This document shows positions 13,129 to 62,600 of a stretch of 64,000 nucleotides of DNA, in pieces (the first letter of the stretch is position 1; every line of letters starts with the position of its first letter). The position numbers and the translations under genes were made by a program. Location of the stretch: the IMG/VR virus record IMGVR_UViG_3300033463_000097; one strand, 5' to 3'. The notes below the pieces were generated by a model, which was not told the origin of the DNA, made no database searches, and saw only the letters and a program-made list of their open reading frames with translations. Source of the DNA: a virus.

Positions 13129-13410
13129 TTAGTTTTGCCCGATGTGGCGAATGAGGTAGTCTATATACCATTTAGCCTTTTCCAGGTCTTGGACACCATT
13201 CTTATGCTTCCATCGCCACAGATATTTAATTGCATTTGCGGTGCATACTGCTTCAATACCTTCAAGCCCAGTCGTGGCCGCAGCAAGCCCATCAATACAT
13301 TCAATACCCCCCGCCGTGTAATGGGCGGGGTGATTTACCATATCATTTGCTGCTTTATCTTTTTCATATTGCTCTGCTATATCAATAGCCCGCTTGTAAT
13401 AATCATCCAT
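13129..13410 (-). CDS. DUF3310-family protein (HPAHY motif)
   Basis: Contains VNHPAHYTAGGIECID. This family often sits next to phage polymerases. Confidence 0.55.
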   Translation of the reverse strand: MDDYYKRAIDIAEQYEKDKAANDMVNHPAHYTAGGIECIDGLAAATTGLEGIEAVCTANAIKYLWRWKHKNGVQDLEKAKWYIDYLIRHIGQN

Positions 13411-16400
13411 TATTCAGCCCCATACCTTTCTGTTGTCAATTCTAAATCTGTATTATTAACTATTTTGTTTATTTTATATAACTGATGCCCCGCAGAAGAA
13501 GCATACTTTTTCGTAATAAAGTCATCGCCGGAGCGAATACCTTGAACTACAATCATTTGTCCGCGGTTAAACCAACTCTTCTCTTTAACTTTCTTTGTCC
13601 CATCTTCTTGCTTCTCAGAGATTTGTTTATCAAATAGAGCAAAATATTCTTTACGGAACTTGACATTAACTACTCCGGTAGGAGTGAGAAGAGATACACT
13701 ACTCTTTACCTTATTCTTTGCTATGCATGTGCCGCAGATGCGATACAGTTTAAAGATATTAATTGTCTTGCCGGCCTTAGTAAATGTTCTTTCTACTTCT
13801 GGATTTTCTGGCAATTTAAAGAAATCGCTTATACCATACTTCTGGAAATTAATATCTTTTAATTCGTGGTCATGATAATAGAAACACATCGCTTCCATTT
13901 CCCATGATGAATAATTACCTTCGGCATATTTATCCCAATCCTGTTTAAATATCAGGCCATTGAGATTATTGAGAATAGCTTCTTTATCGGAGGCAATCCA
14001 CTCTCTAAATATATCCATCCAATGTTGGTATTCTTTTTCCCAAACTTTAATTTCGAGAAACTCATTCTCTTGAATTAATGCATCATATCCCATTTCTTGT
14101 AGAAACGATATTGCGCGTGCATCTAAGAAATACCATGTTGGACTTTCTTTATTCTTACAGACTGCTTTAAGATAACGATTGAACTCATATACTCTACGAG
14201 CCATTATTCGTTCATCTGTATCTTCGGGCAGCAGATTATATCTAATAAGCCCCGGCAGATTTTGTAATGTCAAACGAGATTTCTTATCACACGTTTCCCA
14301 TATGAACCAGGCCATACATAATTTGCGCTCCATCATATTATCAAATGCTCCACTTTTAATTAATGAAACCATTGCCTGTTTCTTTGGATTTACTTTATAA
14401 TAAAAATCTTTTGGAGATACATATGGACGCTTTGCAATAATATCTTTTACAACATCATCATTAACATTTAACAATGCCTTCATACCGAATAGAATTTGAT
14501 TATTTTCAATATCGGGTTTAAATCCGAAGCCTGAACGATTTATATCAACTGTACTTACTTTAATTCCGGCGCTGATAATGTCTCCAAGAGCCTTTGCGAC
14601 TTTTCCATAATCAGTACTTGTGTTCTTGCTTTCAGTTTCTTCTTCTTCCTCAAAATCTTCTTCATCCTCTTCAAGAGAGCCGCTATTTACAATCAAACAT
14701 GCGGTATCCCAATAAATTGGGTTCCAATGTGTCGCTATATATAATGTCTGCGCTCCAATGAAAGAATACGCTAGGGCGTGAATACGAGAGAATGAATAGC
14801 CCATCTGAGGACCGCATCCATGTTTCCATACGTATCGACCAAGAGCTGGAGATTTAGCCTGGTCTAATACTTGCTGCCGCAATGCTGGGATTTTCTTCAT
14901 TTGCTTTTTACCAACAATCTTGCGGGCTGCGTTAGCATCTGCTAAACTGAAATCGCAAATATTTTTATCCATTAGCATCAACATTAGACTTTCCTGGTCG
15001 GGAGGAACGCCATAGTCTGCGAGAAAGTATGGTTCAAGAGTTTTCTGCTCTTCCTTTGTTAATCCTTCTCTATCCATTTCTTTATACCATAGACTTATAT
15101 CATTCTTTTGCTTATAATATTTATCCAATGGTCTCTCTTCATCTTCTTCGCCCATTAATCGCATCAAACCATTTGCGGAAGACATTTCTTGGATAGAATG
15201 AGGTTTAAGTTTCTTTGCTACCTGTGCTCCAACTTGGCTATCAAATTGGAATGTATTAATTACACTTACATTGCCTAGTGCTTCCCAAATCTTTTCATCA
15301 TTAATGGGAAGAACATTAGGATGGAAGTATTTATCATAAACTTCTTTAAGAGATAGATTTTTTTCAATCTCACCATCTTCTTGCAGAAGTTGAATTGTTT
15401 GAACTAATTTATCTTGAACTTCGGTTACGAGGAAGTCATATTTTGTGGCGCCGCAATATTCTACATCATGTAGATTAAACTGACTGATAATCTCTCCTTT
15501 TGGAGTTCTCATAAAAGCACAATACTCAAATGGGTCACCATCTAGTAGAATAACACCAGAAGCATGAGAAGAGCGTTTATTAATTACACTATTAATACCC
15601 ATGATGATTTCCAGTAGTCCAGGATATTTACTTACTTCTCTTATAAATGTGGGAATTGGTTTACGATTCTTCTCTTCATTACCATTGATAACATCATCAA
15701 TATCCCATAGAAAACCACGCTCAGATGGAATAAGAGATGCCATATACTGTGCCTGGTCTACATCAATACCATCGGGATAGTCATCACTACGATAGCCTCG
15801 GCAAGCAGTTAGGATAGCAGATTTTGTGCCTTCGGTTCCAAAAGTAGCAATTCTAACACAACCAAGGTTATCTTTGGCCCATTGCGGCACGTCATCATTA
15901 AACATCTTGCTGCGCTCTTCGGCAATCTTCTTAATAACTATGCCAACTTTACTTGGACACAGGTCAAGATCAATATCGCCCAACTCAACACGTTCATCAT
16001 TAAGATAGCGGAAGAACGGCAAATTCCAAACGATTGGGTCTAACTGTGTAATACCCATTAGATAATGGTTTAGAGCCGCGCAACTTGAGCCACGTCCTGC
16101 GCCCACCATAGAACCGCACTCCCACATCAAATCAATATAGTGTTGAAGTGTATTTGGATAACGGAACATATTAGTTTCCAGTTTCTCACCAATGATGCGT
16201 TTTACTCTTGCTTCTTCTTCAAGACGTGCTAGATATGTATCGTCACCAGTTTCTAATAAATGGTTCCAACCTTTTCCTAATTCGTTGAGTTTATCCCAGC
16301 ATTGATTGACCCAATATCTATCTTGAATATCTTCTGACGCCAAAAGATATTTAAGATTTGGGAACTTTTCCATTTCATCAGCATATGGATTATTGTTTCC

Positions 16401-17363
16401 AAAACCACCACGAGGATAATTCTTTACTTCTACACTTGGAATGTTCTGTTTGCGGAAAAGAGAGAATGGCTGTATTTTATCCTGTATTTCAAGAGTGTTC
16501 TTTATAATCACATCAGCCCAATTTTCTTCGTGAATACTCTGTATTAATAATTCTTTTAATTCATCATATGACATTAGATAGGTGAATTCATAGAATGCAT
16601 CAACCTCACGGTCTCCTTCCTTGGAGTTAAGATATGCTTTATGAATTGGTCTATCTTCTGGACGAGCATAGTGCGCGTCGGTTGCTACAACAACTGTCGT
16701 ATGCGTAACTAATGAAATGGATAGAAGCGTTTGATTAACCAATATTTGTTCTGGAGAATTGCCGGGGGCGCACTCCAAATAAAAATCTTCTCCAAATAAT
16801 CTTTGACAAAAGTCAATAAATTCAAGGATTTTATTATAATATAAACGCGCATTATCCATATCACCAATCTTCTGCGCTGTTTTATATAACATAATTAACT
16901 GCGGCAACTCGCCACCAATACATGCGGTTGTGGCAATTAAATGTCCTTTAAATTTGCTGACCACTTCAATTAAATCTGCTTTTGTAGTTGGAACTCTTTC
17001 CATTTTGCGGTCTGTGTAACTTTCCAACCACGCCTTTGTAGATAACTCTTTTAAGGCCCTGTAACCAATAGCATCCTTTGCAATAAGTATGAAGTGATAA
17101 TACTTTTGGCCCGAACCTTTTTTATCTACAAGATATATTTCATTTCCAAACGCCAGTTTGAAGTCTGGGTATTTTTCTTTAATTTCATTGTAATATTTTT
17201 CGGCTTCAACATGTGCTGCTAGGACTTCATGGTCTGTTATAGCAACACCTGAAAGTCCTAATTTAATTGCAGTATCTATTAACTTTTTTGGGGAATTAAT
17301 AGCATCAAGAAGCCGAATGTTTGAATAATAAGTATGATTATGATAACTAAAATATGATGACAT
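13410..17363 (-). CDS. DNA polymerase III alpha-subunit-like replicative polymerase (N-terminal PHP domain)
   Basis: 1317 aa with no TAG. The N-terminus YHNHTYYSNIRLLDA...GVAITDHEV is PHP-like. Confidence 0.8.
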   Translation of the reverse strand: MSSYFSYHNHTYYSNIRLLDAINSPKKLIDTAIKLGLSGVAITDHEVLAAHVEAEKYYNEIKEKYPDFKLAFGNEIYLVDKKGSGQKYYHFILIAKDAIGYRALKELSTKAWLESYTDRKMERVPTTKADLIEVVSKFKGHLIATTACIGGELPQLIMLYKTAQKIGDMDNARLYYNKILEFIDFCQRLFGEDFYLECAPGNSPEQILVNQTLLSISLVTHTTVVVATDAHYARPEDRPIHKAYLNSKEGDREVDAFYEFTYLMSYDELKELLIQSIHEENWADVIIKNTLEIQDKIQPFSLFRKQNIPSVEVKNYPRGGFGNNNPYADEMEKFPNLKYLLASEDIQDRYWVNQCWDKLNELGKGWNHLLETGDDTYLARLEEEARVKRIIGEKLETNMFRYPNTLQHYIDLMWECGSMVGAGRGSSCAALNHYLMGITQLDPIVWNLPFFRYLNDERVELGDIDLDLCPSKVGIVIKKIAEERSKMFNDDVPQWAKDNLGCVRIATFGTEGTKSAILTACRGYRSDDYPDGIDVDQAQYMASLIPSERGFLWDIDDVINGNEEKNRKPIPTFIREVSKYPGLLEIIMGINSVINKRSSHASGVILLDGDPFEYCAFMRTPKGEIISQFNLHDVEYCGATKYDFLVTEVQDKLVQTIQLLQEDGEIEKNLSLKEVYDKYFHPNVLPINDEKIWEALGNVSVINTFQFDSQVGAQVAKKLKPHSIQEMSSANGLMRLMGEEDEERPLDKYYKQKNDISLWYKEMDREGLTKEEQKTLEPYFLADYGVPPDQESLMLMLMDKNICDFSLADANAARKIVGKKQMKKIPALRQQVLDQAKSPALGRYVWKHGCGPQMGYSFSRIHALAYSFIGAQTLYIATHWNPIYWDTACLIVNSGSLEEDEEDFEEEEETESKNTSTDYGKVAKALGDIISAGIKVSTVDINRSGFGFKPDIENNQILFGMKALLNVNDDVVKDIIAKRPYVSPKDFYYKVNPKKQAMVSLIKSGAFDNMMERKLCMAWFIWETCDKKSRLTLQNLPGLIRYNLLPEDTDERIMARRVYEFNRYLKAVCKNKESPTWYFLDARAISFLQEMGYDALIQENEFLEIKVWEKEYQHWMDIFREWIASDKEAILNNLNGLIFKQDWDKYAEGNYSSWEMEAMCFYYHDHELKDINFQKYGISDFFKLPENPEVERTFTKAGKTINIFKLYRICGTCIAKNKVKSSVSLLTPTGVVNVKFRKEYFALFDKQISEKQEDGTKKVKEKSWFNRGQMIVVQGIRSGDDFITKKYASSAGHQLYKINKIVNNTDLELTTERYGAE

Positions 17364-38023: not shown

Positions 38024-38353
38024 TCATATACCATAATCAGTATTTATGTCAATCGGTTCTTCCTCTTGGCCAGGCTCAAAAGGCAATATTTCATCATCAA
38101 GCAAGTCATTTAGAATTGCTTCATATTTAATACCATTTTTAGTATTTTCTGCTTTTGCCTTATTGTAGTAGAAACCTTGACTTACGCCATATGCGCTCCA
38201 CGCTACACCGGGGATAACGCTAAGCCAAGGTAGAGAACCGGTATATCCGTTGATAACACATAAAAAGGCTAGAACAATATAAGAAATTGTTATAATCCAG
38301 ATTAGTAACCCTTCCCAAATTAGTAATTTTTTGGAAAATTCTTTTTGTTTCAT
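38024..38353 (-). CDS. putative holin (two TM helices, charged C-terminal tail)
   Basis: It lies immediately downstream of the endolysin, and its ATG overlaps the lysin TGA (ATGA). Confidence 0.5.
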   Translation of the reverse strand: MKQKEFSKKLLIWEGLLIWIITISYIVLAFLCVINGYTGSLPWLSVIPGVAWSAYGVSQGFYYNKAKAENTKNGIKYEAILNDLLDDEILPFEPGQEEEPIDINTDYGI

Positions 38354-40056
38354 TTTAGTAATCCCAATTTCTTCAAAATTCTATGAACTACTGTAATGAA
38401 TTCCTCTCTGGTAATATATTTCTTATACATCTTGCGGCCCTTGTCATCACCTTGAATGAAACCATTTTGCTCGGCCCAAGCACGTGCTTCGGCAGACCAA
38501 CTTTCATTTGTGTCTTTATTTGCCTGTTCGACAATCCAAGTTTCCATCATTTCATTAAATCTTTCCTGTGTCATATCTTCATCCTCCTCTGCTAATGCAT
38601 TAGTGACAGTTGTAGCCAATTCGCCCAAACGATTATATAGCCAATCGCCGGGGCAGGATTTATTTGCGAACCAACGATGGACTGTAATAATCATTTCATC
38701 TGCTTTTGGTTCATAACCTAATGCCATAGTCTTATCACTAAACCAGATTAATTTTGTTTTATTATAACGTTTGCATATGTCAATACATAGTCTTATTAAT
38801 GACTAGAAGACAACTTCATTCATACGATATGGGTCAAATGTATCGCTTGCGCATTCAATAGTAATAGCGCGATTATCATTTGCCGTGTTTGAAGAACACC
38901 AACTTCTATCTTTTTCCTCAACATATAGTCCAATGCGGCCGTCCTTATCAATGCCATAATTTGAAGAAGCCTAAGTGGTTGAACGAGCAAACCACGCTCC
39001 AAGTGCTTCTGCAGTGCATTGTCCTACAACGCAATGAGGAGTAATTCTATCAATAGAATGAGTGCGATTTGCAGTCTTATTTGGTGATATTGTTTTTACT
39101 GCGATTAATGGACTATTGCTCATTTCTTGTTTTTCCTCCTCAACTTTTGGCTTTTCTGTTTCATTTACGTTAGTTTTTTTTTCAGTTACAATAAATGGAC
39201 TATATCCTTTTGATTGTAAATCTCTTAACATATTTTCAGCATTACTTCTTACTGAAAATGCTCCTACCTATACTTTATAATATGGGGCAACATATGTAAC
39301 AAAAGCATTTTTATAATTAGCCCCAAGGGTTTTGATTTTATCACAAAAAGCATTTGCATTTTGTTTCGATGCGAAAGCGCCAACCTATATTCTATATATC
39401 ATAGAAATAGTTTCAGTTGGCTATTCAACTGTTTTATATTCATCTTTAAAATAAATAGCAACCATGTTATCAACAGGACGATTGTAAGAAGCAACTGCAT
39501 ATGGCTTTCCACTATATAGTAATCTTGTGCTGCCTCCGCCATCTAAGTTAATAGCATAAGTGCAACCAGTTTTTAATACTATATCAGCCGCTTCGTTAAA
39601 TGTGGCTCCTGGACTATCAATAGAAAATGTATAGACATAATTTTCATCATACCCAATAATAGTTCTACGTGCGCGTCCAGAAATTTCTGTTGCCATAGAA
39701 ATGGGAGCTTTCTATCCGTTTACCACAAGTGGCGGATATCCAGAAATAAAATCTATCCAATTTCTTTCATTATCTCTACCATAGCATAAATTTCCAGTAG
39801 TATCAATACCCATACCATAAATTAAGCCAGTATCAACAGCTTTAATTATTCCATTATCAATATAATCCATTGTTGGTTTTCCATCGCTGAAATTAAAAAA
39901 TCCGCCATTAATTAGAATGTCGGGCTTATTATTTACACTATTATAATAATTATCTAGCGTCTAAGTTGGCTCCTTAGCTGAAACAAAATCAATTTTTTGA
40001 ATATGTTCTTTCTTTGTTTTTGTAATAAATACATTTGACTAAACCTATAATCCCAT
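38350..40056 (-). CDS. multi-domain endolysin: phosphodiester-glycosidase-like domain, two SPOR repeats, Amidase_2-like domain and a C-terminal SLH domain; about 8 in-frame TAG
   Basis: Track ORFs 39421.., 38971.. and 38350.. are in one frame. The domains show AINLDGGGST (NAGPA-like), VGAFASKQNA/VGAFSVRSNAENMLRDLQSKGY (SPOR), a PGRP-like YGIDKDGRIGLYVEEKDRSW...RAITIE, and SWSAEARAWAEQNGFIQGDDKGRKMYKKYITREEFITVVHRIL (SLH). Confidence 0.7.
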
Positions 40057-41663: not shown

Positions 41664-42074
41664 CTATCTTTTCTTTCGTATATATTTATAAAAATCATCT
41701 TTATCTTCAATATATTGCTTTAAACTCGCTTTTTCAAAATTTATTTTATTATTACACCATTTAATTTTTTCTTCAAGATTTTTAATTTCTTTTAACAATC
41801 TTTTATATACATAATCTGATGTTGAAATTTTTGGACTTATTGTGCTTTTAAAATGGGCTAGTCCGGTAAGTTCATTATGAGCAATCTTACGCTTTGCTTT
41901 AAAATAGTTAATACGAGCGCGCCTTAGAGCAATTTCACATCCAACCTTTTCACTTTTCATATCTTCATCTTCAGCGGCGACATGTGACTGTCCAATATAT
42001 ATGTCCTATCCTTCCCAAATAGCGCATAGGGCCAGACCGTTTTCTTCATCCCATTCAAAATAAGGTTCCGTCAA
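41664..42074 (-). CDS. hypothetical protein, 1 in-frame TAG (probable TTG start)
   Basis: Extends track ORF 41664..41960 upstream to a GGAG RBS. Confidence 0.4.
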
Positions 42075-42123
42075 TTTATTCAACTCCTTTTTTTATTTTA
42101 TTATAGCAAAAAAAATAAAAAAA

Positions 42124-42153
42124 AGCAACCGAGAGAATGTTCTCTCGGTTGCT
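42124..42153 (-). terminator. intrinsic terminator (agcaaccgagaga / tctctcggttgct, followed by a T-run on the minus strand)
   Basis: A 13-bp stem immediately after the stop of the 42154 gene. Confidence 0.65.
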
Positions 42154-42735
42154 TTATATAAGTCCAAAATTTGATTTTTGATTTATAAAAAATCCAGCAT
42201 CTGTATAGATTTCGTTTAAAATATCTTTATTGTCAAGCATTTCTTGATAAGTCAGCCATTGACACTGAACAAGTAAAATAGAGATATAAGTAAGAATAAT
42301 TTGCAGATTATATTTGTTCAATGTAATTATTTTGAAAGGTTTTAATAAATCTATATTTTCAGTAATAAAATCAATTAACGCATCGACATCATCAAGTTTT
42401 TTAGAGTCAAATTGACGCACTTGTGTTATTGTGATAAATTCCTCTGCCGTGATTTCATCGTTAAAAACTAGCTCTAAGAAATTAGTATTATTTATAAACT
42501 TTTGTATTAATAGGCAATATTTATCATAATTTTTTTTAGATGAATAGAATTCTATAAATTGATAAAAAGATGTTAATTGATTTTCGGTTGCCTCTTCATC
42601 CGTTAAAACAATCGGATAAAATATAATATCATCAATACTAATTAAGTCACTATCTAATTCTTCATCTTGTTCAAGATAATCAATAATATTCATTTTAGTT
42701 TTTTGTATATATAAAAGGTTACTTTCATTAGACAT
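42154..42735 (-). CDS. hypothetical protein (last gene of the radical-SAM operon)
   Basis: 193-aa ORF. An AGGAGG RBS precedes it and its start overlaps the radical-SAM stop. Confidence 0.5.
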   Translation of the reverse strand: MSNESNLLYIQKTKMNIIDYLEQDEELDSDLISIDDIIFYPIVLTDEEATENQLTSFYQFIEFYSSKKNYDKYCLLIQKFINNTNFLELVFNDEITAEEFITITQVRQFDSKKLDDVDALIDFITENIDLLKPFKIITLNKYNLQIILTYISILLVQCQWLTYQEMLDNKDILNEIYTDAGFFINQKSNFGLI

Positions 42736-44074
42736 TTTTATTTGCCTCCTTTGATAGCTATAATAAAGAATTAAATTCCTCTTCTGAAATAATTTGTAGT
42801 GCCCAATCTTTTGGGACTAAAAGAGGCATTGGATTTTGTATATGTGTTTTTAAATAGCTTTTATTTTTTAGATAACTAGATGCTAAAACTCTTGCTATAT
42901 GAGTAATACAATGATAGTTAGTTCTATATCCTATTTCATTAGATACCTCATATGAGTATGCCGCACAATCTCCGCATCCTTCTTGTATTGGACAATCAAT
43001 ACAATCTTTATGACAACTTAGCTATTTTTGACGATTAACGGTTTTAAACTGTTCAATTATTTTTTCCTATTCATCATTATAAATAAAACCATGCTCAACA
43101 TCACCAATTTTCATTTTAATTGCTTTTTCATATCCAATTGAGCTTGGGCAATATCTTAAACAAGGATAAATATCTCCTCTTGGGTCAAGGCATATCATTG
43201 AGCCAGAACCTCCACACCAGGGTATATCTTTTTCGTACCGTGTAACGCCACATTCATCATCCAAAATTGTAATATATATATCATCTTGTAGATTATTTTC
43301 TAATAAATAATCATTTAATTGTTTTAATTGTTCATATAAAATTTTTCCATCAACATCTGTCCACCCTTCTTCATAGACGCAGTTAATAAAAATAATTTTA
43401 TATTTTTCTATACTAATTAAATCATGTAATGCTATATAAACCTTATCAACATTAGAAGGAGATATAGTAATTTTGGTCTAGTCTAAGAGTTGATTTTTTC
43501 TCCAATCTTCAACTGCCCTATGTACAATATCATATGACCCTTTTCCATCTGGAAATAATCTACACGTATCATGTAAATCTTTATTCCCATCAATTGTAAT
43601 TGTCATATTTATATACTATTTATACTTATTTAAATAGTTTTGAACCTTTGGCTCAAAATATAACGTACCATTTGTAGCAATATTGAATCTAAAACGAAAT
43701 AACCACGGATGATTTAATCTAATTAATTCATCAATAAAATATTCACTCACCTAATCGATAAGTTCAATTTCTAATAATGGCTCTCCACCAATGAAATCAA
43801 TTATGGCTCCCTTGCTTTCCCATGAATTAATATATTTTTTACTTCTATCATCGCCTGCTAATAAAATATCTATAAATTTTTTAGCTGTATTAAAATCTAA
43901 TTTGGTAGATGTTTTTTCATGCTAATAACAATATGAACATTTGAGGTTGCAAAATTCAGTTACCTATAATGTTATTGTATAGACGTGATTTCCACCAACC
44001 CTAGTATTAATACGCTCATTTGGATAGAATAACCTGATAATCTAATCTGAGAATTGCTCATTTTTTATTTTCAT
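42728..44074 (-). CDS. radical SAM / SPASM-domain maturase (anSME-like), 6 or more in-frame TAG
   Basis: The N-terminal part reads MKIKNEQFSDqIIRLF...TITLqVTEFCNLKCSYCYqHEKT (CxxxCxxC) with a glycine-rich GGEPLL motif. The C-terminal auxiliary-cluster cysteines are ...DDECGVTRYEKDIPWCGGSGSMICLDPRGDIYPCLRYCPSS...CHKDCIDCPIQEGCGDC. The frame is 449 codons. Confidence 0.75.
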
Positions 44075-44079
44075 AGCAT

Positions 44080-44373
44080 TTAATCTTCTTGAACATTAAT
44101 TTTTAATTCCCTATTATAAAAGGTTAATTCCCAATTAATTACCTGTGGGTATTTTTCTCTTATATAGGTAAATTCAAAATTCTTTTTTGCTAAATCATAT
44201 TTAACAAAAAATTCTTGGTACTCAGAAAAATATTTATCAAATAGTTTTTCGTTTACATCTGGCTTTTCGCTTAAAAAGTCTAGTAAATTTTTTCTAGATT
44301 CAACTTCATAACTTAAAGCTTCTAAGAAGTTTACAGTTTCTTCTCCTATTGTTTCTATATATGTTTTTATCAT
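44080..44373 (-). CDS. small hypothetical protein between the Cys-repeat protein and the radical-SAM enzyme (candidate recognition or chaperone component)
   Basis: 97-aa intact ORF whose stop abuts the radical-SAM ATG. Confidence 0.5.
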   Translation of the reverse strand: MIKTYIETIGEETVNFLEALSYEVESRKNLLDFLSEKPDVNEKLFDKYFSEYQEFFVKYDLAKKNFEFTYIREKYPQVINWELTFYNRELKINVQED

Positions 44374-44390
44374 AATAATCTCCTTTTATA

Positions 44391-45278
44391 TTATCCTACT
44401 CCTGCATTACTACTACATCCACCTTCACATCCAATGCCACAAGAGCCAGTGCATTGGTCATTACATGCAGTATAGCATCCACCAACACACTGAGTCCCAC
44501 ATCCACCTTGACAACTTCCTCTACACCCGAGGCATCCGGTAGTACATTGAGATAGACATGTATCTAAACACGAATCTAAGCATCCGTTTTCACAATTGCC
44601 ATAACAACTAGAATAACATTCTCCTTCGCATCCAGTAGTACAATCTTCTCCACACGATGTGTCACAGGAACCTGTGCATCCCCCAGTGCAATTTCCACCA
44701 CAGTTTACTTGACACCCAGAACCACATCCAGCTCCGCAAGCTCCTCCACAACCTGTCGCACAGCTTGTTCCACACTATCCAGTACATCCTGTTGCACATC
44801 CGGTGCCGCAAGTTGTACCACATCCACTACATGTTCCAGTGCTTTTCATACGACATACGCCAACACAGCCGCCGTAGCATAATCCTGTGCATCCACTTGA
44901 ACAATCTGTTCCATCCACATCACTTTGACTACCTCTAACTCTTGATGCATAAGTAGCAACATACTATTCCATTTCACCTACAAATGCTTCAGTAATTTTT
45001 GTTGTACCACCAGATGTAAGGGTTGTAGTTGCAGGATGTTGGTTATGAATTGCATTCATTGGAGTAGCAATTTCTTTATAGTGTGTAACAGTTATTTTTA
45101 CTCCTGCGGCAGGCGTTGTTGTAAAATTCCCGACCTAATTTGATACAGATTTTGATCCAGATGCTGAACCAATACCATCTCTTCTACTGCATTCATAGTT
45201 AATATCTGTTTTTAAGGTGGTAATTCTTTCTGCTGTTATTGTTTCACCAATTGCCACATACACCAACTCCTTTTTCAT
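44391..45278 (-). CDS. cysteine-repeat protein: ~115-aa N-terminal domain followed by about 43 Cys in tandem C-x3 units, 3 in-frame TAG
   Basis: The C-terminal half reads ...DCSSGCTGLCYGGCVGVCRMKSTGTCSGCGTTCGTGCATGCTGqCGTSCATGCGGACGAGCGSGCQVNCGGNCTGGCTGSCDTSCGEDCTTGCEGECYSSCYGNCENGCLDSCLDTCLSQCTTGCLGCRGSCQGGCGTQCVGGCYTACNDQCTGSCGIGCEGGCSSNAGVG. I checked the reverse complement by hand. The track does not list this ORF because it has no start codon after the last TAG. Confidence 0.7.
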
Positions 45279-45484
45279 ATTTTTTCTATATAAAATATAA
45301 AAAATAAATAAATTAAATTAAATATATATGTCCAATCTATTTCTATATATATTATAGCAAAAAAATACTAGAAAAGCAAGTTTTCTACATTTTTCTCAAA
45401 AAATTTGCTGACGCCTAAGCGCGCGGGGCAAGGGCCGTTCGCGAGGTCTGATTATAAAGAAGGAGAGGCTCAATTAAGAGCCTC

Positions 45485-46273
45485 TCAACCGTAATATCCA
45501 CCATCAGGCGGGTCGCGCTTATATTCTATCCCATTCGGGCATTTTATTTTATCTGAAATAACCGGTCCCGAGCAACTATTACCCTGCCATACGCACTTAT
45601 CACAATTTGATGATTTATAGTAATATAAATCCCAATTTGCTTCGACAAGACGTCTTTCTTCTTTAACTTTTGTTACTGCTGCTGATTCTTCTTCAATATC
45701 GAGAAAATCTTTACACTCTTTTACTTTTGCATACATTTCCTCAATAATATCATCAAGCAGCACTGGCTTGCAGTCATGGCTATCAACGCCAACGTGATAC
45801 ATATAAGGCATATCCATGTAGAAGTTTGTCTTTTGATGCGTATGACCGAAAAGGTTGAGAGTCATCTGCTTTAGACTTTCCTTTTCAAGATTGCCCGTCA
45901 ACGTGGGATAATGGCTCATATAGAAGTGATGCTTTTTATACTTGAGCGTATCGACATTGCTAACATCTTCCACATTGTCGAGATTCAGATATGCTTGTAT
46001 ACGCTTTTCAGTATCATGGTTACCGAGTACAATATGTAGATGGCCATGCATCTGACGAATCCACTCTAGACCACTTCTCATACTCTCTGCGCCGCCAAGC
46101 ATTAGGTCACCCAGGACGTACACTTCATCGTCGGGAGATACGAGAGTGTTGTGTCTTTCGACAAGTGCTATATTCATATCTTGAATGGATTCAAAACCAC
46201 GCGGTTTCCAGATGAATTCTCTATCGTGGTTAAAATGCCAGTCGCTAGTTACCCAAATCTTAGGTTCAGCCAC
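45485..46273 (-). CDS. calcineurin-like metallophosphoesterase (phosphatase component of a kinase-phosphatase pair)
   Basis: MPP motifs are present (DWHFNHD, GDLMLGG, GNHD, GHTH). Confidence 0.75.
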   Translation of the reverse strand: MAEPKIWVTSDWHFNHDREFIWKPRGFESIQDMNIALVERHNTLVSPDDEVYVLGDLMLGGAESMRSGLEWIRQMHGHLHIVLGNHDTEKRIQAYLNLDNVEDVSNVDTLKYKKHHFYMSHYPTLTGNLEKESLKQMTLNLFGHTHQKTNFYMDMPYMYHVGVDSHDCKPVLLDDIIEEMYAKVKECKDFLDIEEESAAVTKVKEERRLVEANWDLYYYKSSNCDKCVWQGNSCSGPVISDKIKCPNGIEYKRDPPDGGYYG

Positions 46274-46757
46274 GATGCATCTCCTCCTCTGCTCCGTCTT
46301 CGTAGATGTTCTTAATCATGTGGTAAGTATAGGGGTCGCTAAGAGGGTGCGTCAGAGTGCCGCGCATTTGATAGATGACCTTAGTGGGGACTTGTGCCAG
46401 TCCCTCACGACCAGAATTGCGTTCCACGCAAGTTTCCACAGCGGTCTTAAAGACAATGCAACTCACATCTACGCCTTCCAGATTCAGATGACTAATGAGT
46501 TTGTTGCGCGAAGCCCAGTTCAGATGAGTAGCATCCGCAATCACATCTTCTCCGTGGTCCAGATGATACTGAATTTCGTGCAAAAACTTGGAATAAACCA
46601 TGCGCTCATGCTTAAAATACTCTTCGTCACGCTTCAGCAACTGGAAACGAATTGCATCACGAGAGACATATGCGGCATCGCCCTGATTCTTTTTAGCCCA
46701 ATAGGACTTGCCGCTACCCGGCAGACCGACAAGTATCCACAGATTCTTGTGCTTCAT
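46266..46757 (-). CDS. P-loop polynucleotide kinase-like protein (AAA_33)
   Basis: Walker A WILVGLPGSGKSYWA. It overlaps the phosphoesterase gene. Confidence 0.65.
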   Translation of the reverse strand: MKHKNLWILVGLPGSGKSYWAKKNQGDAAYVSRDAIRFQLLKRDEEYFKHERMVYSKFLHEIQYHLDHGEDVIADATHLNWASRNKLISHLNLEGVDVSCIVFKTAVETCVERNSGREGLAQVPTKVIYQMRGTLTHPLSDPYTYHMIKNIYEDGAEEEMHRG

Positions 46758-49643: not shown

Positions 49644-50987
49644 TCAAATGTCCTGTGCTTCCTCGCCAATTAGTTCCTCTCGCTCCTCCATATCAGGCTC
49701 GGCCGCAAGGTCCTTGGCCAGGCCTTCGAGAACCTTGAAACTAAAGTTCTTATGCTTGTAGGCGCAGAACTTCGGACGGTTTACAATGCGGATAACAACG
49801 CCCTCGCGCACGTGAGTCTTGCCGATAGGGTCGGGACCATCGTAAAACATTTCTGCCATCTCCTTGACATAGTTGCCGGGAGATGCCCAGCCGCCGCAGT
49901 TATCGGGGATAATGCCGCGGAACAGAAGAGGAACGCAGTTAGCGCCCATCTGCTCGCAGCGATAGCGTAGATAGTCAGGCGGATACTCTGTAACGTCGCC
50001 ATCCTCATTGGTAATGGTCATACGATAGACATAGCAGGCGGACTGAGGAGGCTCGCAGCCATAAGAGAAAACAGTAGTCTTGCCATACTGCTTAGAGAAC
50101 TCCTTATCAGAAATCTTGCTGTTGGAAACAGAAGGCATGATAGGAGCGCCGGTGTCGGTAAAGCCGACAATCTCGTAGTAGACAGTCTCACCCTTGCGCA
50201 GCTTACCCTCGAAGAACTTTGCGTGCGGCGCACGGAACGCATTATTGCCGTAATATCCGCCATCATCGAAGTCATTGAGAACAACACGGCGAGTTCCGGT
50301 TACATAGCCCCAGTCATAGATGGGAGTACCCTCACGACGGAAAATCTTGTCCCAGAAAGTGCGCTTGTAACCCTGGAACTTAGGCAGATAGCCAGTACGT
50401 CCAGAAGTACCATGCATCTTCAAAGTAATCTCAATCAGATCCTTCTCTTTGAACGCACCGAGGTTATATGCCAACTGCTCAGTATCGGCGTGCTCTGCAA
50501 ACAGAGGAGCCAGAGGGACACTCTTTTTGCGAGTACGATTACCCTCACTGACATGACCCTGACGAATATTGCTCTTCGGGATATACTTACGGCAAATTTC
50601 ATGCCCGTTCAGCATCTCAATCTTATCACCGACCTCGAACTTGGTCTCGCCAGTGTAAGCCAGAGACTCAAGCGGCATATACAGCCCTTCGGACTTCTCG
50701 CCGCGCAACTTCATCGCGCGAATATTGCGCTTATCGGGGTCAAGATAACCACCGATGTTATTTCCATTTTCGTCCTTTTTACGGACAAGGTTATTCTGAG
50801 CGCAGTACTCCTCGCTCAACTGGAGGTCGATAGGGAAGTATACTCCGATATCGCCAACCTTAACATCCAGACCAACGATAACAGAAGCGCCGAAGATAGT
50901 CGCAATCTGAAGACGGTCTGCATTAGAGTGCGGACTCAACTCTGCGATTTTTACAACGTAGCCAACATGCTCGCTCATTTTTATCAC
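49644..50987 (-). CDS. ATP-dependent RNA ligase (Rnl2-like KxHG nucleotidyltransferase) with an N-terminal tRNA-binding OB domain; GC-rich gene
   Basis: The N-terminal region reads VVKIAELSPHSNADRLQIATI (tRNA-binding domain-like) and motif I is KMHGTSGR (T4 Rnl2 has KIHGTN). The gene is ~55% GC, carries a long antisense ORF and has no TAG. Confidence 0.6.
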   Translation of the reverse strand: MIKMSEHVGYVVKIAELSPHSNADRLQIATIFGASVIVGLDVKVGDIGVYFPIDLQLSEEYCAQNNLVRKKDENGNNIGGYLDPDKRNIRAMKLRGEKSEGLYMPLESLAYTGETKFEVGDKIEMLNGHEICRKYIPKSNIRQGHVSEGNRTRKKSVPLAPLFAEHADTEQLAYNLGAFKEKDLIEITLKMHGTSGRTGYLPKFQGYKRTFWDKIFRREGTPIYDWGYVTGTRRVVLNDFDDGGYYGNNAFRAPHAKFFEGKLRKGETVYYEIVGFTDTGAPIMPSVSNSKISDKEFSKQYGKTTVFSYGCEPPQSACYVYRMTITNEDGDVTEYPPDYLRYRCEQMGANCVPLLFRGIIPDNCGGWASPGNYVKEMAEMFYDGPDPIGKTHVREGVVIRIVNRPKFCAYKHKNFSFKVLEGLAKDLAAEPDMEEREELIGEEAQDI

Positions 50988-61052: not shown

Positions 61053-62600
61053 TTACCGGATGCAAGCGTAACGCTCGGAGTCCAGCTTATCGAACATGAG
61101 GTCGTAGGCAGTGACGCCCTTGAGAACCTGCTCGAAGATGACAGGACTGAAACCAGAGACGTAGCTCACGTGGCCGGAGACACGCATCGGGATGTTATCC
61201 TGACGCGCCTGGACGTTCCAGAATACAAGATTCGGCATCTTGTAGCCAGCAGCGTTCCAGCGCTTTTCGATGGTCTCGAAAAGGGTCTCACTTACACCGG
61301 CGTGGCGCATATAGCCCCAGCGGTCGCGCTCAGTACCGTTGCTGCAAGTGCAAGCATTGAACTCCATGTCGGAGACAATGATTACAGATGCAGGAATCTC
61401 GTCCTGAGAGCAGTGGTTCTGCTTTGCGATGCGGAGCATCTGGTCAAAGACAGCCTCCACGTTGGTGCTTCCATCCCAGTCCGCCTGCGCCATACGGTTC
61501 ACCTTGTCGACAAAGTCGACACCGGTTACTTCGATGAACGTAGGACGATCACTGAAGGTGAAAAAGTGGTCTGCAAATGCGCCACGATTGCGCTCGGCGC
61601 AATACATAGCGATAGACAGAGCAACTGCGAGAGGATCGCCGTACATAGAACCAGAGGTATCGGCAACGCAGATACCATTAAAGGTACAACCCTTAAAGTA
61701 ATCTGCAAGATTCTCCCAGTACTTGTTGACCATCAGACGCTCAGTGTCGTCGAGGTCACCACTCTTACGGCCGCCGAAGTAGCCGCCCCAGTGACCGAAG
61801 CGCATAGCCTCCTTGACAACCTCGTAAGGATACAGAGCCTTGGCGTTAACCTTGGTATTCTTATCCTTAGCGAAGTCCTCATAAGACTGAACAGCCTTTT
61901 CAGACTTCATGCGCTCGATATCGTGACGCGCAAACGCGTTACGATAAATCATACCGGCGCGAGAAGGAATCTTGTCGAATTCAATCTCGTCCCAGCGGCC
62001 CGCAGACATCAGACGCTCCAGAACGCGAATGCGCTCACGGAGGATAGACAGAGTCTTGCGGTACTCCTTGTGATTCATGCCGAAATACTTGCGGGTCTTG
62101 TCCGCCAGCTTACGGGAATCCAAGGAGCTAGTATTCTCACTCTTCAGCCACTTAGCCAGAAGAGAAGGAGTCTTGCACTGAACGTCGAGTGCAAGCTGCT
62201 TATGCATCAGCTTGAACGCGTCCTGCTCCAGCGGAGTGCCGACAAAAACATACAGGTCGTCCCAGCGACCGAACTCTGGGACGTACTGCAGATTAGGACG
62301 CATAGACTCAGTGTACTCCCGCGCCAGATACTTGGTCACGACGCGGAAGAAGCGACGCTCACCCTGTCCCCCACGCACGTCGCGCAGATAGAACAGGCAC
62401 TTCATAGCATAGACAGGCTCTTCATCGAAAGCCTTCATGAAGAGGTTGATAACATCAGCATCGGTGCGGGTACGGTATGCCCCACCGAGCGCGAACAGGT
62501 CGAGCAGACCGTCAAGAGTGCTCTTGTAGGTCAGCGCGCCATTCTCAGTGTAGGTGTAGTTGCTCTCGGCCTTGAGAGCATCCATGAACTTGTTAGCCAT
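61053..62600 (-). CDS. vWA-domain protein of the DUF2828 / Ro60(TROVE)-like family; GC-rich (~50%) gene
   Basis: 515-aa ORF with a vWA-like MIDAS region (VADTSGSM). It carries a full-length antisense ORF (61170..62693), has no TAG, and differs in composition from the surrounding genome. Confidence 0.5.
   Translation of the reverse strand: MANKFMDALKAESNYTYTENGALTYKSTLDGLLDLFALGGAYRTRTDADVINLFMKAFDEEPVYAMKCLFYLRDVRGGQGERRFFRVVTKYLAREYTESMRPNLQYVPEFGRWDDLYVFVGTPLEQDAFKLMHKQLALDVQCKTPSLLAKWLKSENTSSLDSRKLADKTRKYFGMNHKEYRKTLSILRERIRVLERLMSAGRWDEIEFDKIPSRAGMIYRNAFARHDIERMKSEKAVQSYEDFAKDKNTKVNAKALYPYEVVKEAMRFGHWGGYFGGRKSGDLDDTERLMVNKYWENLADYFKGCTFNGICVADTSGSMYGDPLAVALSIAMYCAERNRGAFADHFFTFSDRPTFIEVTGVDFVDKVNRMAQADWDGSTNVEAVFDQMLRIAKQNHCSQDEIPASVIIVSDMEFNACTCSNGTERDRWGYMRHAGVSETLFETIEKRWNAAGYKMPNLVFWNVQARQDNIPMRVSGHVSYVSGFSPVIFEQVLKGVTAYDLMFDKLDSERYACIR

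What the first reader, a model, noticed from the sequence alone, without database searches (positions are those of the whole stretch)
42728..45278. Phage operon: protein with ~43 cysteines in C-x3 tandem repeats, a small partner protein, and a radical-SAM/SPASM maturase
Three co-directional, tightly packed genes on the minus strand, with a terminator only after the fourth gene at 42124. (1) 44391-45278 encodes a 295-aa protein. Its ~115-aa N-terminal domain is followed by about 180 residues that are almost entirely C-x-x-x units (GCTG, SCGT, TCGT, ... GCEGGC), about 43 Cys in total. I confirmed this by hand reverse-complement. (2) 44080-44373 encodes a 97-aa protein of unknown function. (3) 42728-44074 encodes a radical-SAM enzyme with an N-terminal CNLKCSYCY cluster motif and a C-terminal SPASM-like auxiliary-cluster region (CGGSGSMICLDPRGDIYPCLRYCPSS ... 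CHKDCIDCPIQEGCGDC). The layout (repeat-rich Cys substrate, small RRE-sized protein, SPASM maturase) is that of thioether-forming RiPP systems such as sactipeptides and ranthipeptides. Here the substrate is protein-sized with dozens of potential crosslink sites, and it is carried by a virus. I do not recognise this precursor architecture. It could be a heavily cross-linked structural or armour protein, or a metal-binding module matured by the radical-SAM enzyme.
Basis: partly seen in the sequence, partly recalled or inferred. Interest (0 to 1): 0.92.

Follow-up and report, generated by a model that had tools for sequence, protein, structure and literature searches.

The report
Phage cysteine-repeat protein with radical-SAM maturase
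A large gut phage that reads the stop codon TAG as glutamine carries a protein with a cysteine at every fourth residue, next to the enzyme predicted to cross-link it; the gene set belongs to a family that was predicted by computer years ago, has not, as far as I could find, been tested in the lab, and turns out to be common in phages.

Summary
On the minus strand, 44391-45278 encodes a 295-aa protein with 42 Cys, 41 of them in residues 126-288, and 37 of the gaps between tail cysteines are exactly 4. It is followed by a 97-aa gene, a 448-aa radical-SAM/SPASM gene and a 193-aa gene, and terminator-like hairpins bracket the four. They are only ORFs if TAG encodes Gln, and homologues have Gln at those positions.

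The architecture is not unknown. The enzyme matches NCBIfam TIGR04115, "radical SAM peptide maturase, CXXX-repeat target family" (348 bits, cutoff 350). The 97-aa protein is a divergent TIGR04116 partner (hhalign 95.6%), not a PqqD-type RRE. Homologues of the Cys protein carry PF27846/TIGR04114.

The cassette is common in phages: at least 214 IMG/VR contigs, and Bacillota prophages, often beside tail-fibre and lysis genes. The distinctive feature is a conserved helical N-terminal domain of about 110 aa on the phage targets.

The most likely mechanism is thioether stapling of the Cys tail late in infection. The chemistry and the role of the product (virion part or released peptide) are untested. 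I rate it a new variant of a known kind, of moderate interest.

The parts
44391..45278 (-). NX: the 295-aa target protein, an N-terminal domain followed by a CXXX-repeat tail. It has 3 in-frame TAG (Gln) codons at 45135-45137, 44964-44966 and 44775-44777.
   Evidence: Translation. TAG positions. 99 homologous protein clusters, many carrying PF27846 tSAM_targ_Cxxx_rpt. The tail hits phrog_6085, of unknown function.
44904..45278 (-). N-terminal domain of NX (residues 1-125). It is conserved among phage and prophage targets and is absent from the bacterial CXXX targets.
   Evidence: An HMM built from four seed sequences hits the Cys-rich ORF in 74 of the 88 sources of that set (87 loci plus the window), and in 94 loci once the genome loci are added. 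Nearly invariant residues are K23, E29, R32, R33, S38, Y45, E65, H66, K69 and P73. In the AlphaFold2 model of homologue P0001, helices span 6-22, 51-64 and 81-96 at pLDDT about 70-86. No Pfam or NCBIfam hit, including the Nif11/NHLP leader models.
44415..44903 (-). CXXX-repeat tail (residues 126-288): 41 Cys, 37 gaps of exactly 4, rich in G/T/S. Only 8 of the 41 units contain Asp or Glu.
   Evidence: No DNA tandem repeat. The tail of the homologue model is at pLDDT below 50.
44080..44373 (-). c: the 97-aa partner protein, a divergent member of TIGR04116 (CXXX repeat peptide modification system protein).
   Evidence: The family is found in 85 of 88 loci, almost always immediately upstream of or overlapping the rSAM gene. 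hhalign of the phage alignment A4 against bona fide TIGR04116 proteins (A6): probability 95.6%, E 1.2e-8, 90 columns. AlphaFold2 pLDDT 96; strand, helix, helix, strand, strand. 580 representatives at 50% identity among 1.84 billion proteins.
42728..44074 (-). D: the 448-aa radical-SAM/SPASM maturase, with 9 in-frame TAG (Gln) codons.
   Evidence: TIGR04115 rSAM_Cxxx_rpt: E 7.5e-104, 348.0 bits (cutoff 350), residues 33-401 against model positions 3-358 of 359. The next family is PapB at 178.6 bits. phrog_1802 at 186.8 bits. CteB 5wgg: E 2.3e-20, residues 31-399 against 96-445. Cysteine motifs.
42154..42735 (-). b: a 193-aa acidic protein of unknown function. It appears to be co-transcribed with the other three genes, but its membership of the system is not established.
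   Evidence: It overlaps the rSAM gene by 8 nt, has an AAAGGAGG ribosome-binding site, and lies before the terminator-like hairpin. It has no family hit. Non-Cys ORFs of 120-260 aa (mostly about 170-200 aa) directly follow NX in 64 of 94 loci, but they are not detectably homologous to each other or to this protein. None of its 12 Gln codons is TAG.
45463..45486 (-). Terminator-like hairpin upstream of the operon, at the end of the phosphoesterase gene.
   Evidence: 9-bp stem with 6 G-C pairs.
42122..42155 (-). Terminator-like hairpin that closes the four-gene unit.
   Evidence: 15-bp stem with 7 G-C pairs, followed by TTTTTATTTT.

Best explanation
This is a phage-borne copy of the CXXX-repeat radical-SAM maturation system (target TIGR04114/PF27846, maturase TIGR04115, partner TIGR04116), in a ~132-kb SPbeta-like phage of gut Bacillota that decodes TAG as Gln.

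Proposed mechanism:
1. The four genes are transcribed as one unit.
2. Full-length maturase (9 TAG) and target (3 TAG) can only be made once TAG is suppressed. By analogy with other recoded phages, that would be late in infection. This timing is inferred.
3. The maturase has no fused RRE domain. The 97-aa partner presumably holds the conserved N-terminal domain and/or the invariant first unit (C-x3-C-T-G-L-C) of the target and presents the tail to the enzyme.
4. The enzyme abstracts hydrogen atoms by SAM cleavage and joins cysteine sulfurs to carbon atoms of neighbouring residues. This turns the glycine/serine/threonine-rich tail, with up to 41 Cys, into a chain of small thioether rings that tolerates reducing conditions and proteases.
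5. No protease or exporter gene is present and the N-domain is strongly conserved. I therefore think the whole protein is the product, and that it is a virion-associated (tail-fibre-region) component released at lysis.

Shown: gene structure, TAG recoding, family membership, conservation and genomic contexts.
Inferred: thioether chemistry (my estimate about 0.5), the partner's role in presenting the substrate (about 0.5), a virion role (about 0.3-0.35).
For: Family membership:
- TIGR04115 at 348 bits, 170 bits above the next family.
- The partner protein is linked to TIGR04116 by profile-profile comparison.
- Homologues of the target carry PF27846/TIGR04114.
- The rSAM and seven-Cys SPASM motifs are conserved.

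Chemistry:
- The nearest characterised relatives all make Cys thioethers: PapB (178.6 bits), SCIFF maturase/CteB (105 bits; 5wgg E 2.3e-20) and QhpD (98 bits). PapB's chemistry is described in PMC12373016.
- The enzyme aligns to CteB only from CteB residue 96, so it lacks CteB's N-terminal RRE. The partner gene abuts the rSAM gene in nearly all loci.

Conservation of the trio:
- 76 of 80 viral loci have a CXXX ORF next to the enzyme, and 85 of 88 have the partner.

Timing:
- TAG makes up 45% (maturase) and 30% (target) of Gln codons. That is similar to the tail fibre (56%) and the endolysin (50%). It is 0% in PolIII, gyrase and ligase.

Virion or late-function context in relatives:
- L003: tape measure, Dit, Tal, collagen-like fibre, then the cassette, then holin and amidase.
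- L001: tail-fibre PHROGs just downstream.
- L171 and L172: among Big_2/DUF6273, Mtd_N and tape-measure genes.
- L175: next to a lysozyme.
- At least 44 of 80 viral loci have tail and/or lysis genes within 8 kb.
- In this window the endolysin lies about 2 kb downstream.

Whole-protein product:
- No peptidase, transporter or signal peptide is seen in the cassettes.
- One homologue (P0008) has about 180 extra residues in front of the N-domain.
Against: - I found no experimental paper on any member of the TIGR04115 family. The reaction is inferred from homologues that score only 100-180 bits.
- The PapB-type acceptor (Asp/Glu C-terminal to the Cys) is present in only 8 of the 41 units here and at about 3-5% of positions family-wide. 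The acceptor, and even the type of modification, may differ.
- In this phage and in L170 the cassette sits among nucleotide-metabolism and replication genes, not tail genes.
- No cultured phage in the searched collection carries the N-domain protein, so no virion proteome can be consulted.
- Structure prediction gives no fold for the tail, and fold search gives no functional clue for the N-domain.
- The maturase is 2 bits below the curated TIGR04115 cutoff. The window's own target and partner do not reach any NCBIfam model directly.
Confidence: 0.55

Rival explanations
1. Released RiPP-like product. The ~110-aa N-terminal domain is a long leader, as in Nif11/NHLP-type precursors. It is recognised by the partner protein and the maturase and then removed by a host or unlinked protease. 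The multiply thioether-bridged Cys-rich peptide is set free at lysis, or from lysogens, as a bacteriocin, signalling molecule or superinfection-exclusion factor that benefits the phage or lysogen.
For: - In Finegoldia, Anaerococcus and Peptoniphilus the same enzyme and partner families sit with 50-70-aa leader-plus-CXXX peptides, the classical RiPP layout.
- In prophages the cassette often lies between tail-fibre and lysis genes, a common position for accessory cargo genes.
- The host phage is SPbeta-like: its PolIII alpha is about 40% identical to SPbeta YorL. From my own knowledge, not tested here, SPbeta itself carries the sublancin RiPP cluster.
- The operon is AT-rich (GC 0.24-0.29 for b, c and D against 0.37 for the window) and bracketed by hairpins, as an acquired module would be.
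Against: - No peptidase, exporter or immunity gene appears in any cassette examined.
- There is no double-glycine or other recognisable cleavage motif, and no match to the Nif11/NHLP leader models.
- The N-domain is a predicted folded three-helix unit with conserved charged residues.
- The N-domain can be internal to a larger protein (P0008).
- Tails of 40 to more than 140 Cys are far larger than known RiPP cores.
Confidence: 0.25
2. Metal- or cluster-binding protein. The Cys tail acts like a metallothionein or poly-Fe-S scaffold. The radical-SAM enzyme performs only a limited modification, or one other than cross-linking.
For: - The tail is 24% Cys with small flanking residues and is predicted disordered without ligands.
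- Homologous targets in Bacteroidota, Ignavibacteria and Acidobacteria carry twin-arginine (RRxF) signals. That route exports proteins that are already folded or cofactor-loaded.
- Most units lack the acidic acceptor that PapB uses.
Against: - Strict co-occurrence with a SPASM maturase whose closest characterised relatives consume Cys thiols to form thioethers.
- The exact C-x3 register, conserved over hundreds of diverged repeats, fits an enzyme-read motif better than loose metal chelation.
- Tat export is equally compatible with a pre-cross-linked protein.
- A phage has no obvious use for a metal sponge.
Confidence: 0.12
3. Not a functional system: pseudogenes interrupted by stop codons, or a chance low-complexity ORF.
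For: - Under table 11, the rSAM gene is broken by 9 in-frame stop codons and the Cys gene by 3.
- Spurious ORFs occur in other frames of the repeat region.
Against: - All the interrupting codons are TAG. They fall at positions where homologues have Gln.
- The tail fibre and endolysin of the same phage show the same pattern.
- All catalytic cysteines are intact.
- The trio is conserved in more than 70 independent viral loci.
- The periodicity is far beyond what shuffles give.
Confidence: 0.02

Closest known systems
CXXX-repeat radical-SAM system of NCBIfam/TIGRFAMs (TIGR04115 maturase, TIGR04116 partner, TIGR04114/TIGR04117 targets; Pfam PF27846). It was defined bioinformatically; from memory, by Haft & Basu 2011, a paper I could not retrieve.
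   Same: - The same three protein families in one operon.
- The same C-x3 periodicity with small residues between the cysteines.
- A SPASM maturase without a fused RRE.
   Different: - The target has a conserved ~110-aa helical N-terminal domain. The bacterial targets instead have a short leader (Finegoldia type) or a twin-arginine signal (Bacteroidota, Acidobacteria and Ignavibacteria type).
- The window's target and partner are too diverged to reach the curated models, and the maturase is 2 bits under its cutoff.
- It is carried by phages and prophages, often in tail or lysis regions.
- Here it is written in genetic code 15.
PapB/PapA (freyrasin), a ranthipeptide system
   Same: - Second-best family match (NF047865, 178.6 bits, E 1.8e-52).
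- A SPASM enzyme with three [4Fe-4S] clusters that installs several thioethers along a repeated Cys motif (PMC12373016).
   Different: - The score is far below the PapB cutoff of 340.
- PapA has six C-x3-D units, with Asp/Glu as the acceptor. Here only 8 of 41 units contain Asp or Glu.
- The substrate here is a 295-aa protein, and there is a separate partner protein.
CteB/SCIFF maturase (PDB 5wgg)
   Same: - Closest solved structure: E 2.3e-20 across the rSAM and SPASM domains.
- Thioether-forming. That it links Cys to Thr C-gamma comes from my own knowledge and PMC10352776.
   Different: - The window enzyme lacks CteB's first ~95 residues, which contain the RRE.
- TIGR03974 scores 105 bits against a cutoff of 425.
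- SCIFF peptides are about 45 aa with six Cys.
QhpD/QhpC (quinohemoprotein amine dehydrogenase maturation)
   Same: - A SPASM radical-SAM enzyme that cross-links cysteines inside a protein subunit that stays part of a larger assembly, rather than making a free peptide (my own knowledge).
- TIGR03906 matches at 98 bits.
   Different: - The match is far below the cutoff of 453.
- QhpC has three links to Asp/Glu and is a periplasmic enzyme subunit.
- There is no repeat array and no viral context.
TAG-to-Gln recoded gut phages (code 15), for example crAss-like phages and the ~133-138-kb phAss-1 group (PMC10607447; bioRxiv 10.1101/2021.08.26.457843; PMC9523058)
   Same: - In-frame TAG at conserved Gln positions.
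- TAG is concentrated in structural and lysis genes and some DNA-processing genes, and absent from core replication genes.
- A genome of about 132 kb from a gut sample, with a tRNA array.
   Different: - No nucleotide match for the operon region (42000-46400) in the phage collection.
- GC is 37%, against 44.5% for phAss-1.
- No suppressor tRNA lies inside this window.
- The phAss-1 paper contains no occurrence of the term "radical SAM".

Membership tests
CXXX-repeat rSAM maturation system (TIGR04115/04116/04114) | The maturase scores at or above the curated TIGR04115 cutoff. | tested here: inconclusive
   348.0 bits against a cutoff of 350, with E 7.5e-104 and coverage of model positions 3-358 of 359. 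Nine residues were assumed to be Gln. The best family leads the next by about 170 bits. The orthologue in L001 scores 300.6 bits.
CXXX-repeat rSAM maturation system (TIGR04115/04116/04114) | A radical-SAM CX3CX2C motif plus the seven-cysteine SPASM motif. | tested here: met
   C42/C46/C49. C287-x12-G300-x4-C305. C358-x2-C361-x5-C367-x3-C370. C389. All are invariant in alignment A1. The Pfam SPASM model alone is below threshold at 13.9 against 21.5.
CXXX-repeat rSAM maturation system (TIGR04115/04116/04114) | An adjacent target with tandem C-x-x-x repeats. | tested here: met
   41 Cys, with 37 gaps of exactly 4. Homologues carry PF27846, and P0052 reaches TIGR04114 (20.5 bits against a cutoff of 20). 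The window protein itself gave no NCBIfam or Pfam hit at E <= 0.1.
CXXX-repeat rSAM maturation system (TIGR04115/04116/04114) | A small TIGR04116 partner protein in the operon. | tested here: met
   There is no direct hit for the window protein. Two of 21 phage members hit TIGR04116 weakly (best E 0.0059). The phage profile aligns with proteins that score 58-94 bits on TIGR04116 at hhalign probability 95.6%, E 1.2e-8. The phage-built HMM also finds the partners in bacterial loci.
Ranthipeptide (PapB family) | The enzyme reaches the NF047865 cutoff, and the substrate has Cys...Asp/Glu acceptor motifs. | tested here: not met
   178.6 bits against a cutoff of 340. Asp or Glu is present in 8 of 41 units.
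Ranthipeptide/sactipeptide in general | S-to-C (alpha, beta or gamma) thioether bonds are actually formed. | not testable with these tools
   This needs co-expression and mass spectrometry or NMR.
SCIFF/CteB family | The TIGR03974 cutoff is reached, the enzyme has an N-terminal RRE, and the precursor is a ~45-aa six-Cys peptide. | tested here: not met
   105.4 bits against a cutoff of 425. The alignment starts at CteB residue 96. The substrate is 295 aa.
PqqD-like RRE (for the 97-aa protein) | A PqqD/RRE sequence match, or the winged-helix fold of three strands followed by three helices. | tested here: not met
Nif11/NHLP long-leader precursors (for the N-domain) | A match to the leader-domain models and a Gly-Gly cleavage motif. 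| tested here: not met
   No NCBIfam or Pfam match at E <= 0.1. The junction reads ...DVDGTDCSSGC, with no GG motif.
Genetic code 15 (TAG = Gln) phage | In-frame TAG codons at positions where homologues have Gln. | tested here: met
   Across the nine TAG columns, Gln accounts for 231 of about 530 aligned residues, against a background of 3.2%. Four of the positions are almost invariably Gln.
Genetic code 15 (TAG = Gln) phage | A phage-encoded suppressor tRNA(CUA). | tested here: inconclusive
   The window holds only tRNA-Cys and two tRNA-Lys, at 63766-64002. The array runs off the window, and the public contig ends there.

The most novel reading that the evidence does not exclude
The Cys-repeat protein is a structural part of the virion, such as a tail-fibre accessory or surface whisker. 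Its tail is turned by the phage's own radical-SAM enzyme into a ladder of dozens of thioether rings. In effect this would be a substitute for disulfides that survives reducing conditions and proteases, suited to life in the anoxic gut. It would be the first case of RiPP-type radical chemistry used to mature a virus particle protein. It would also give the uncharacterised TIGR04115 family a reaction and a biological role.
Probability: 0.3. Interest if true: 0.85.

Novelty: new variant of a known kind. Interest (0 to 1): 0.55.

Why it matters
- The CXXX-repeat/TIGR04115 system has been in the family databases for years, yet I could find no published reaction, product or function. The phage subfamily described here is abundant in gut viromes and Bacillota prophages.
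- The phage version offers compact three- or four-gene cassettes that could be expressed directly. That makes both the chemistry and the biology testable.
- If the product is a multiply thioether-stapled virion protein, it extends radical-SAM peptide chemistry from small natural products to viral structural proteins. It would also suggest how phages stabilise extracellular parts where disulfides cannot form.
- If the product is a released peptide, it is a new class of phage-carried RiPP.
- Practical point: the operon is invisible to standard gene callers because of TAG recoding. This kind of cargo is therefore probably under-counted.

Tried and rejected
Literature
- Searches for the CXXX-repeat system, TIGR04115, and phage-encoded rSAM, RiPP or thioether tail proteins found nothing relevant.
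- Haft & Basu 2011 could not be retrieved.
- The Bacteroidales RiPP-mining paper does not treat this system.

Database searches
- Nucleotide search of the operon against phage genomes: no match.
- tblastn of the N-domain against cultured phages: only the metagenomic record MT835573.
- The N-terminal extension of P0008 matched no phage record, Pfam family or PHROG.

Structure
I modelled the closest homologue, P0001, instead. Its tail is unstructured at pLDDT below 50.
- Fold search of that model in BFVD returned only uncharacterised phage family members.

The fourth gene
- I tested whether the 193-aa gene is a conserved fourth component. An ORF of similar size follows the target in 64 of 94 loci. 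phmmer clustering and all-against-all hhalign show no homology between the clusters or to the window protein (best probability 10%). The apparent "B190" family of 9 loci was only the seed sequences and their near-identical copies.

Other rejected readings
- Pseudogene or chance ORF (see rival 4).
- QueE or NrdG-activase identity for the enzyme. phrog_2076 (QueE-like) scores only 22 bits, against 348 bits for TIGR04115.

Full report
**1. What is in the sequence**

Four co-directional minus-strand genes occupy 45278-42154.

- Read with TAG as a sense codon, 44391-45278 gives a 295-aa protein. Residues 126-288 hold 41 of its 42 cysteines. 37 of the gaps between successive cysteines are exactly four residues and two are three.
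- In 200,000 shuffles of the tail, the count of gaps equal to four averaged 4.3 and never exceeded 15.
- Tandem Repeats Finder sees no DNA repeat there. The register is therefore maintained at the protein level, not by recent slippage.
- The residues between cysteines are mostly G, T and S. Only 8 of the 41 units contain Asp or Glu.
- 44080-44373 encodes 97 aa, 42728-44074 encodes 448 aa and 42154-42735 encodes 193 aa. The spacings are 17 nt, 5 nt and an 8-nt overlap.
- Terminator-like hairpins on the same strand lie just upstream (45486-45463) and just downstream (42155-42122, 15-bp stem plus T-run) of the four genes.

**2.

- The table-11 ORF list contains neither the 295-aa nor the 448-aa gene. 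The first has 3 in-frame stops and the second has 9, and every one is TAG.
- I aligned the enzyme with 59 non-redundant standard-code homologues. At TAG positions 37, 51, 108 and 351 they have Gln in 54, 48, 41 and 56 sequences. Over all nine columns Gln is 231 of about 530 residues, against a 3.2% background. TAG is therefore decoded as Gln (code 15).
- Recoding is gene-specific. TAG supplies 56% of Gln codons in the tail-fibre-like gene (118-4302), 50% in the endolysin (38350-40056), 45% in the rSAM gene and 30% in the Cys gene. It supplies none in PolIII alpha, gyrase A/B, ligase or the DnaB-like helicase.
- This matches the pattern described for recoded gut phages (bioRxiv 10.1101/2021.08.26.457843; PMC10607447). 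It suggests the maturase and its target are made together with late proteins.
- The same phage exists as a 132,035-bp ENA contig whose gene calls are identical: 295, 97, 448 and 193 aa.
- Its PolIII alpha is about 40% identical to SPbeta YorL. The replication and repair gene set in the window fits a large SPbeta-like phage of Bacillota.

**3. Identity of the enzyme**

- The 448-aa protein matches NCBIfam TIGR04115, "radical SAM peptide maturase, CXXX-repeat target family", nearly end to end. E is 7.5e-104 at 348.0 bits, two bits under the curated cutoff of 350, with nine residues assumed to be Gln.
- The next families are PapB (178.6 bits), CcpM, the SCIFF maturase and QhpD. All are thioether-type SPASM maturases.
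- It has C42-x3-C46-x2-C49 and the seven SPASM cysteines, all invariant in four diverged orthologues.
- The closest solved structure is CteB (5wgg, E 2.3e-20). The alignment begins at CteB residue 96, so the phage enzyme lacks CteB's N-terminal recognition domain.
- Pfam's SPASM model alone is sub-threshold. That does not outweigh the full-length family matches and the cysteine motif.

**4. Identity of the small protein**

- It has no direct Pfam, NCBIfam or PHROG hit.
- An HMM iterated over the fetched loci finds the family in 85 of 88 loci, almost always immediately upstream of or overlapping the rSAM gene. The same HMM picks out the 85-111-aa proteins of bacterial CXXX loci.
- Those bacterial proteins score 58-94 bits on TIGR04116, "CXXX repeat peptide modification system protein".
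- Profile-profile comparison of the phage and bacterial sets gives probability 95.6%, E 1.2e-8 over 90 columns.
- It is thus the system's dedicated partner. It may do what an RRE does, since the enzyme has none, but it is not a member of that family.
- A full HMMER scan finds 580 representatives at 50% identity among 1.84 billion proteins.

**5. Identity of the Cys protein, and how common it is**

- A search of 5.8 billion proteins gave 99 clusters, with the best at 40% identity. Most are 170-310 aa and have the same layout, and many are pre-annotated with PF27846, tSAM_targ_Cxxx_rpt. NCBIfam also holds TIGR04114 and TIGR04117 for such targets.
- Scanning IMG/VR with the enzyme alignment found at least 214 viral contigs. 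In the 80 best loci, 76 have a CXXX-repeat ORF beside the enzyme.
- An HMM of the ~110-aa N-terminal domain hits the Cys-rich ORF in 74 of the 88 sources of that set (87 loci plus the window).
- The commonest gene orders are target-partner-enzyme (26 loci), partner-enzyme-target (12) and target-second target-partner-enzyme (10).
- In genomes, the enzyme's closest relatives are in gut Bacillota MAGs (Oscillospiraceae, Blautia, Lachnospiraceae, Faecalibacterium, "Mollicutes/Tenericutes") and have the phage-type N-domain target.
- Finegoldia, Anaerococcus and Peptoniphilus instead have a 720-aa enzyme, the partner, and 50-70-aa peptides.
- Bacteroidota, Ignavibacteria and Acidobacteria have 90-210-aa CXXX proteins, most with twin-arginine signals.
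- One Tenericutes-MAG protein has at least 144 periodic cysteines.
- So neither the size of the substrate nor viral carriage is exceptional within the family. The N-terminal domain marks the phage/prophage subfamily.
- That domain has nearly invariant K23, E29, R32, R33, S38, Y45, E65, H66, K69 and P73, followed by an invariant first unit C-x3-C-T-G-L-C.
- It is modelled as three helices at pLDDT 70-86 in homologue P0001, while the tail is unmodelled. Fold search finds only uncharacterised phage relatives.

**6. Genomic context**

- L003 (a prophage): tape measure, Dit, Tal, a 1373-aa collagen-like fibre, then target, 192 aa, partner, enzyme, then holin and amidase.
- L006: the cassette precedes the amidase and holin.
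- L001: tail-fibre and tail PHROGs follow the cassette.
- L171 and L172: the cassette lies among Big_2/DUF6273 giants, Mtd_N and tape-measure genes.
- L175: next to a lysozyme.
- A crude seed search finds tail and/or lysis genes within 8 kb in at least 44 of 80 viral loci.
- In this window and in L170 the neighbours are nucleotide-metabolism and replication genes. Here the endolysin is only about 2 kb downstream.
- No cassette contains a peptidase, an exporter or a signal peptide.

**7. The fourth gene**

- An ORF of 120-260 aa (mostly about 170-200 aa) with few cysteines follows the target in 64 of 94 loci, and there are three in a row in L174.
- The clusters show no mutual homology, and none to the window's 193-aa protein.
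- It is co-transcribed here: overlap with the rSAM gene, a strong ribosome-binding site, and the terminator after it.
- Unlike the enzyme, it uses no TAG in 12 Gln codons.
- I list it as an unexplained accessory, not as an established component.

**8. Mechanism and rivals**

The best-supported reading is that the partner and enzyme modify the Cys tail by radical thioether formation, as the nearest characterised relatives do. PapB is described in PMC12373016. The chemistry of CteB and QhpD is from my own knowledge.

The acidic acceptor that PapB needs is mostly absent, so the acceptor atoms are unknown.

I favour the whole protein, with its N-domain retained, as the product, and a virion-associated role. 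The reasons are the tail-region contexts, the late-gene codon pattern, the lack of processing or export genes, and an N-domain that can be internal to a larger protein (P0008).

This last step is the weakest. A released RiPP-like peptide is a serious rival: the Finegoldia-type loci have the classical layout, the cassette often sits in the region between tail-fibre and lysis genes, and SPbeta provides the sublancin precedent. A metal-binding role is less likely but not excluded.

**9. Verdict**

The novelty lies in the phage-specific variant and its context, which I could not find described. I rate it a new variant of a known kind, interest about 0.55.

Noticed in passing
whole window; e.g. 118-4302 (+), 38350-40056 (-), 13410-17363 (-): TAG-to-Gln recoding varies gene by gene. 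TAG supplies 56% of Gln codons in the tail-fibre-like gene, 50% in the endolysin, and 38% in the primase and the RecJ-like gene. It supplies none in PolIII alpha, gyrase, ligase or the DnaB-like helicase. Standard gene calling breaks about a third of the genes.
   Followed up: partly
window 42154-42735 versus 42728-44074: Within one operon the 193-aa gene has 12 Gln codons and no TAG, and the 97-aa gene has 0 of 3. The overlapping rSAM gene has 9 TAG among 20. The cause may be different expression requirements or different ages of acquisition.
   Followed up: no
window 63766-64002 (-): tRNA-Cys(GCA) and two tRNA-Lys lie at the window edge, and the array probably continues beyond it. No suppressor tRNA lies inside the window. 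The public 132-kb contig ends at this point. A phage-encoded tRNA-Cys alongside a 42-Cys protein may be coincidence.
   Followed up: partly
window 49644-50987 (-) and 61053-62600 (-): Two TAG-free genes have GC 0.50 and 0.54, against 0.37 for the window. The b, c and D genes of the operon are unusually AT-rich (0.24-0.29). This compositional mosaic suggests horizontally acquired modules.
   Followed up: no
window 44465-44938, both strands, other frames: The ORF lists show several 50-157-aa ORFs overlapping the Cys-repeat region in other frames. They are by-products of the repetitive codon composition, not genes.
   Followed up: partly
L104:5177-7129; L108:5985-7088: Some relatives are extreme. 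A Tenericutes-MAG protein of 650 aa has the same N-domain and at least 144 periodic cysteines. A Faecalibacterium one has 367 aa and at least 63.
   Followed up: no
L131:7488-7898, L132:5917-6390, L143:7579-7848, L128:4162-4689; P0035, P0053: CXXX-repeat targets in Bacteroidota, Ignavibacteria and Acidobacteria begin with twin-arginine (RRxFFK-like) signals. This implies modification or cofactor loading in the cytoplasm before Tat export.
   Followed up: no
L114-L125 (Finegoldia, Anaerococcus, Peptoniphilus, Lachnospiraceae): In these loci the maturase is about 720-730 aa, so it is fused to an extra domain. It sits with an 88-aa TIGR04116 protein and pairs of 50-70-aa CXXX peptides.
   Followed up: no
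L174:1917-3650; L172:9637-10732; 64 of 94 loci: One to three mutually unrelated ORFs, mostly about 170-200 aa and apparently acidic and helical, directly follow the Cys-repeat gene. Their position is conserved but no sequence homology is detectable.
   Followed up: partly
P0154, P0178, P0181-P0183, P0199, P0238, P0243 (representative search): Some TIGR04116-like partner proteins are tandem duplications of about 203-219 aa, with two matched stretches.
   Followed up: no
window 45485-46273 (-): The upstream metallophosphoesterase (phrog_547) has a C-terminal extension of about 60 aa with five cysteines (…SSNCDKCVWQGNSCSGPVISDKIKCPNG…) that lies outside the phosphoesterase match.
   Followed up: no
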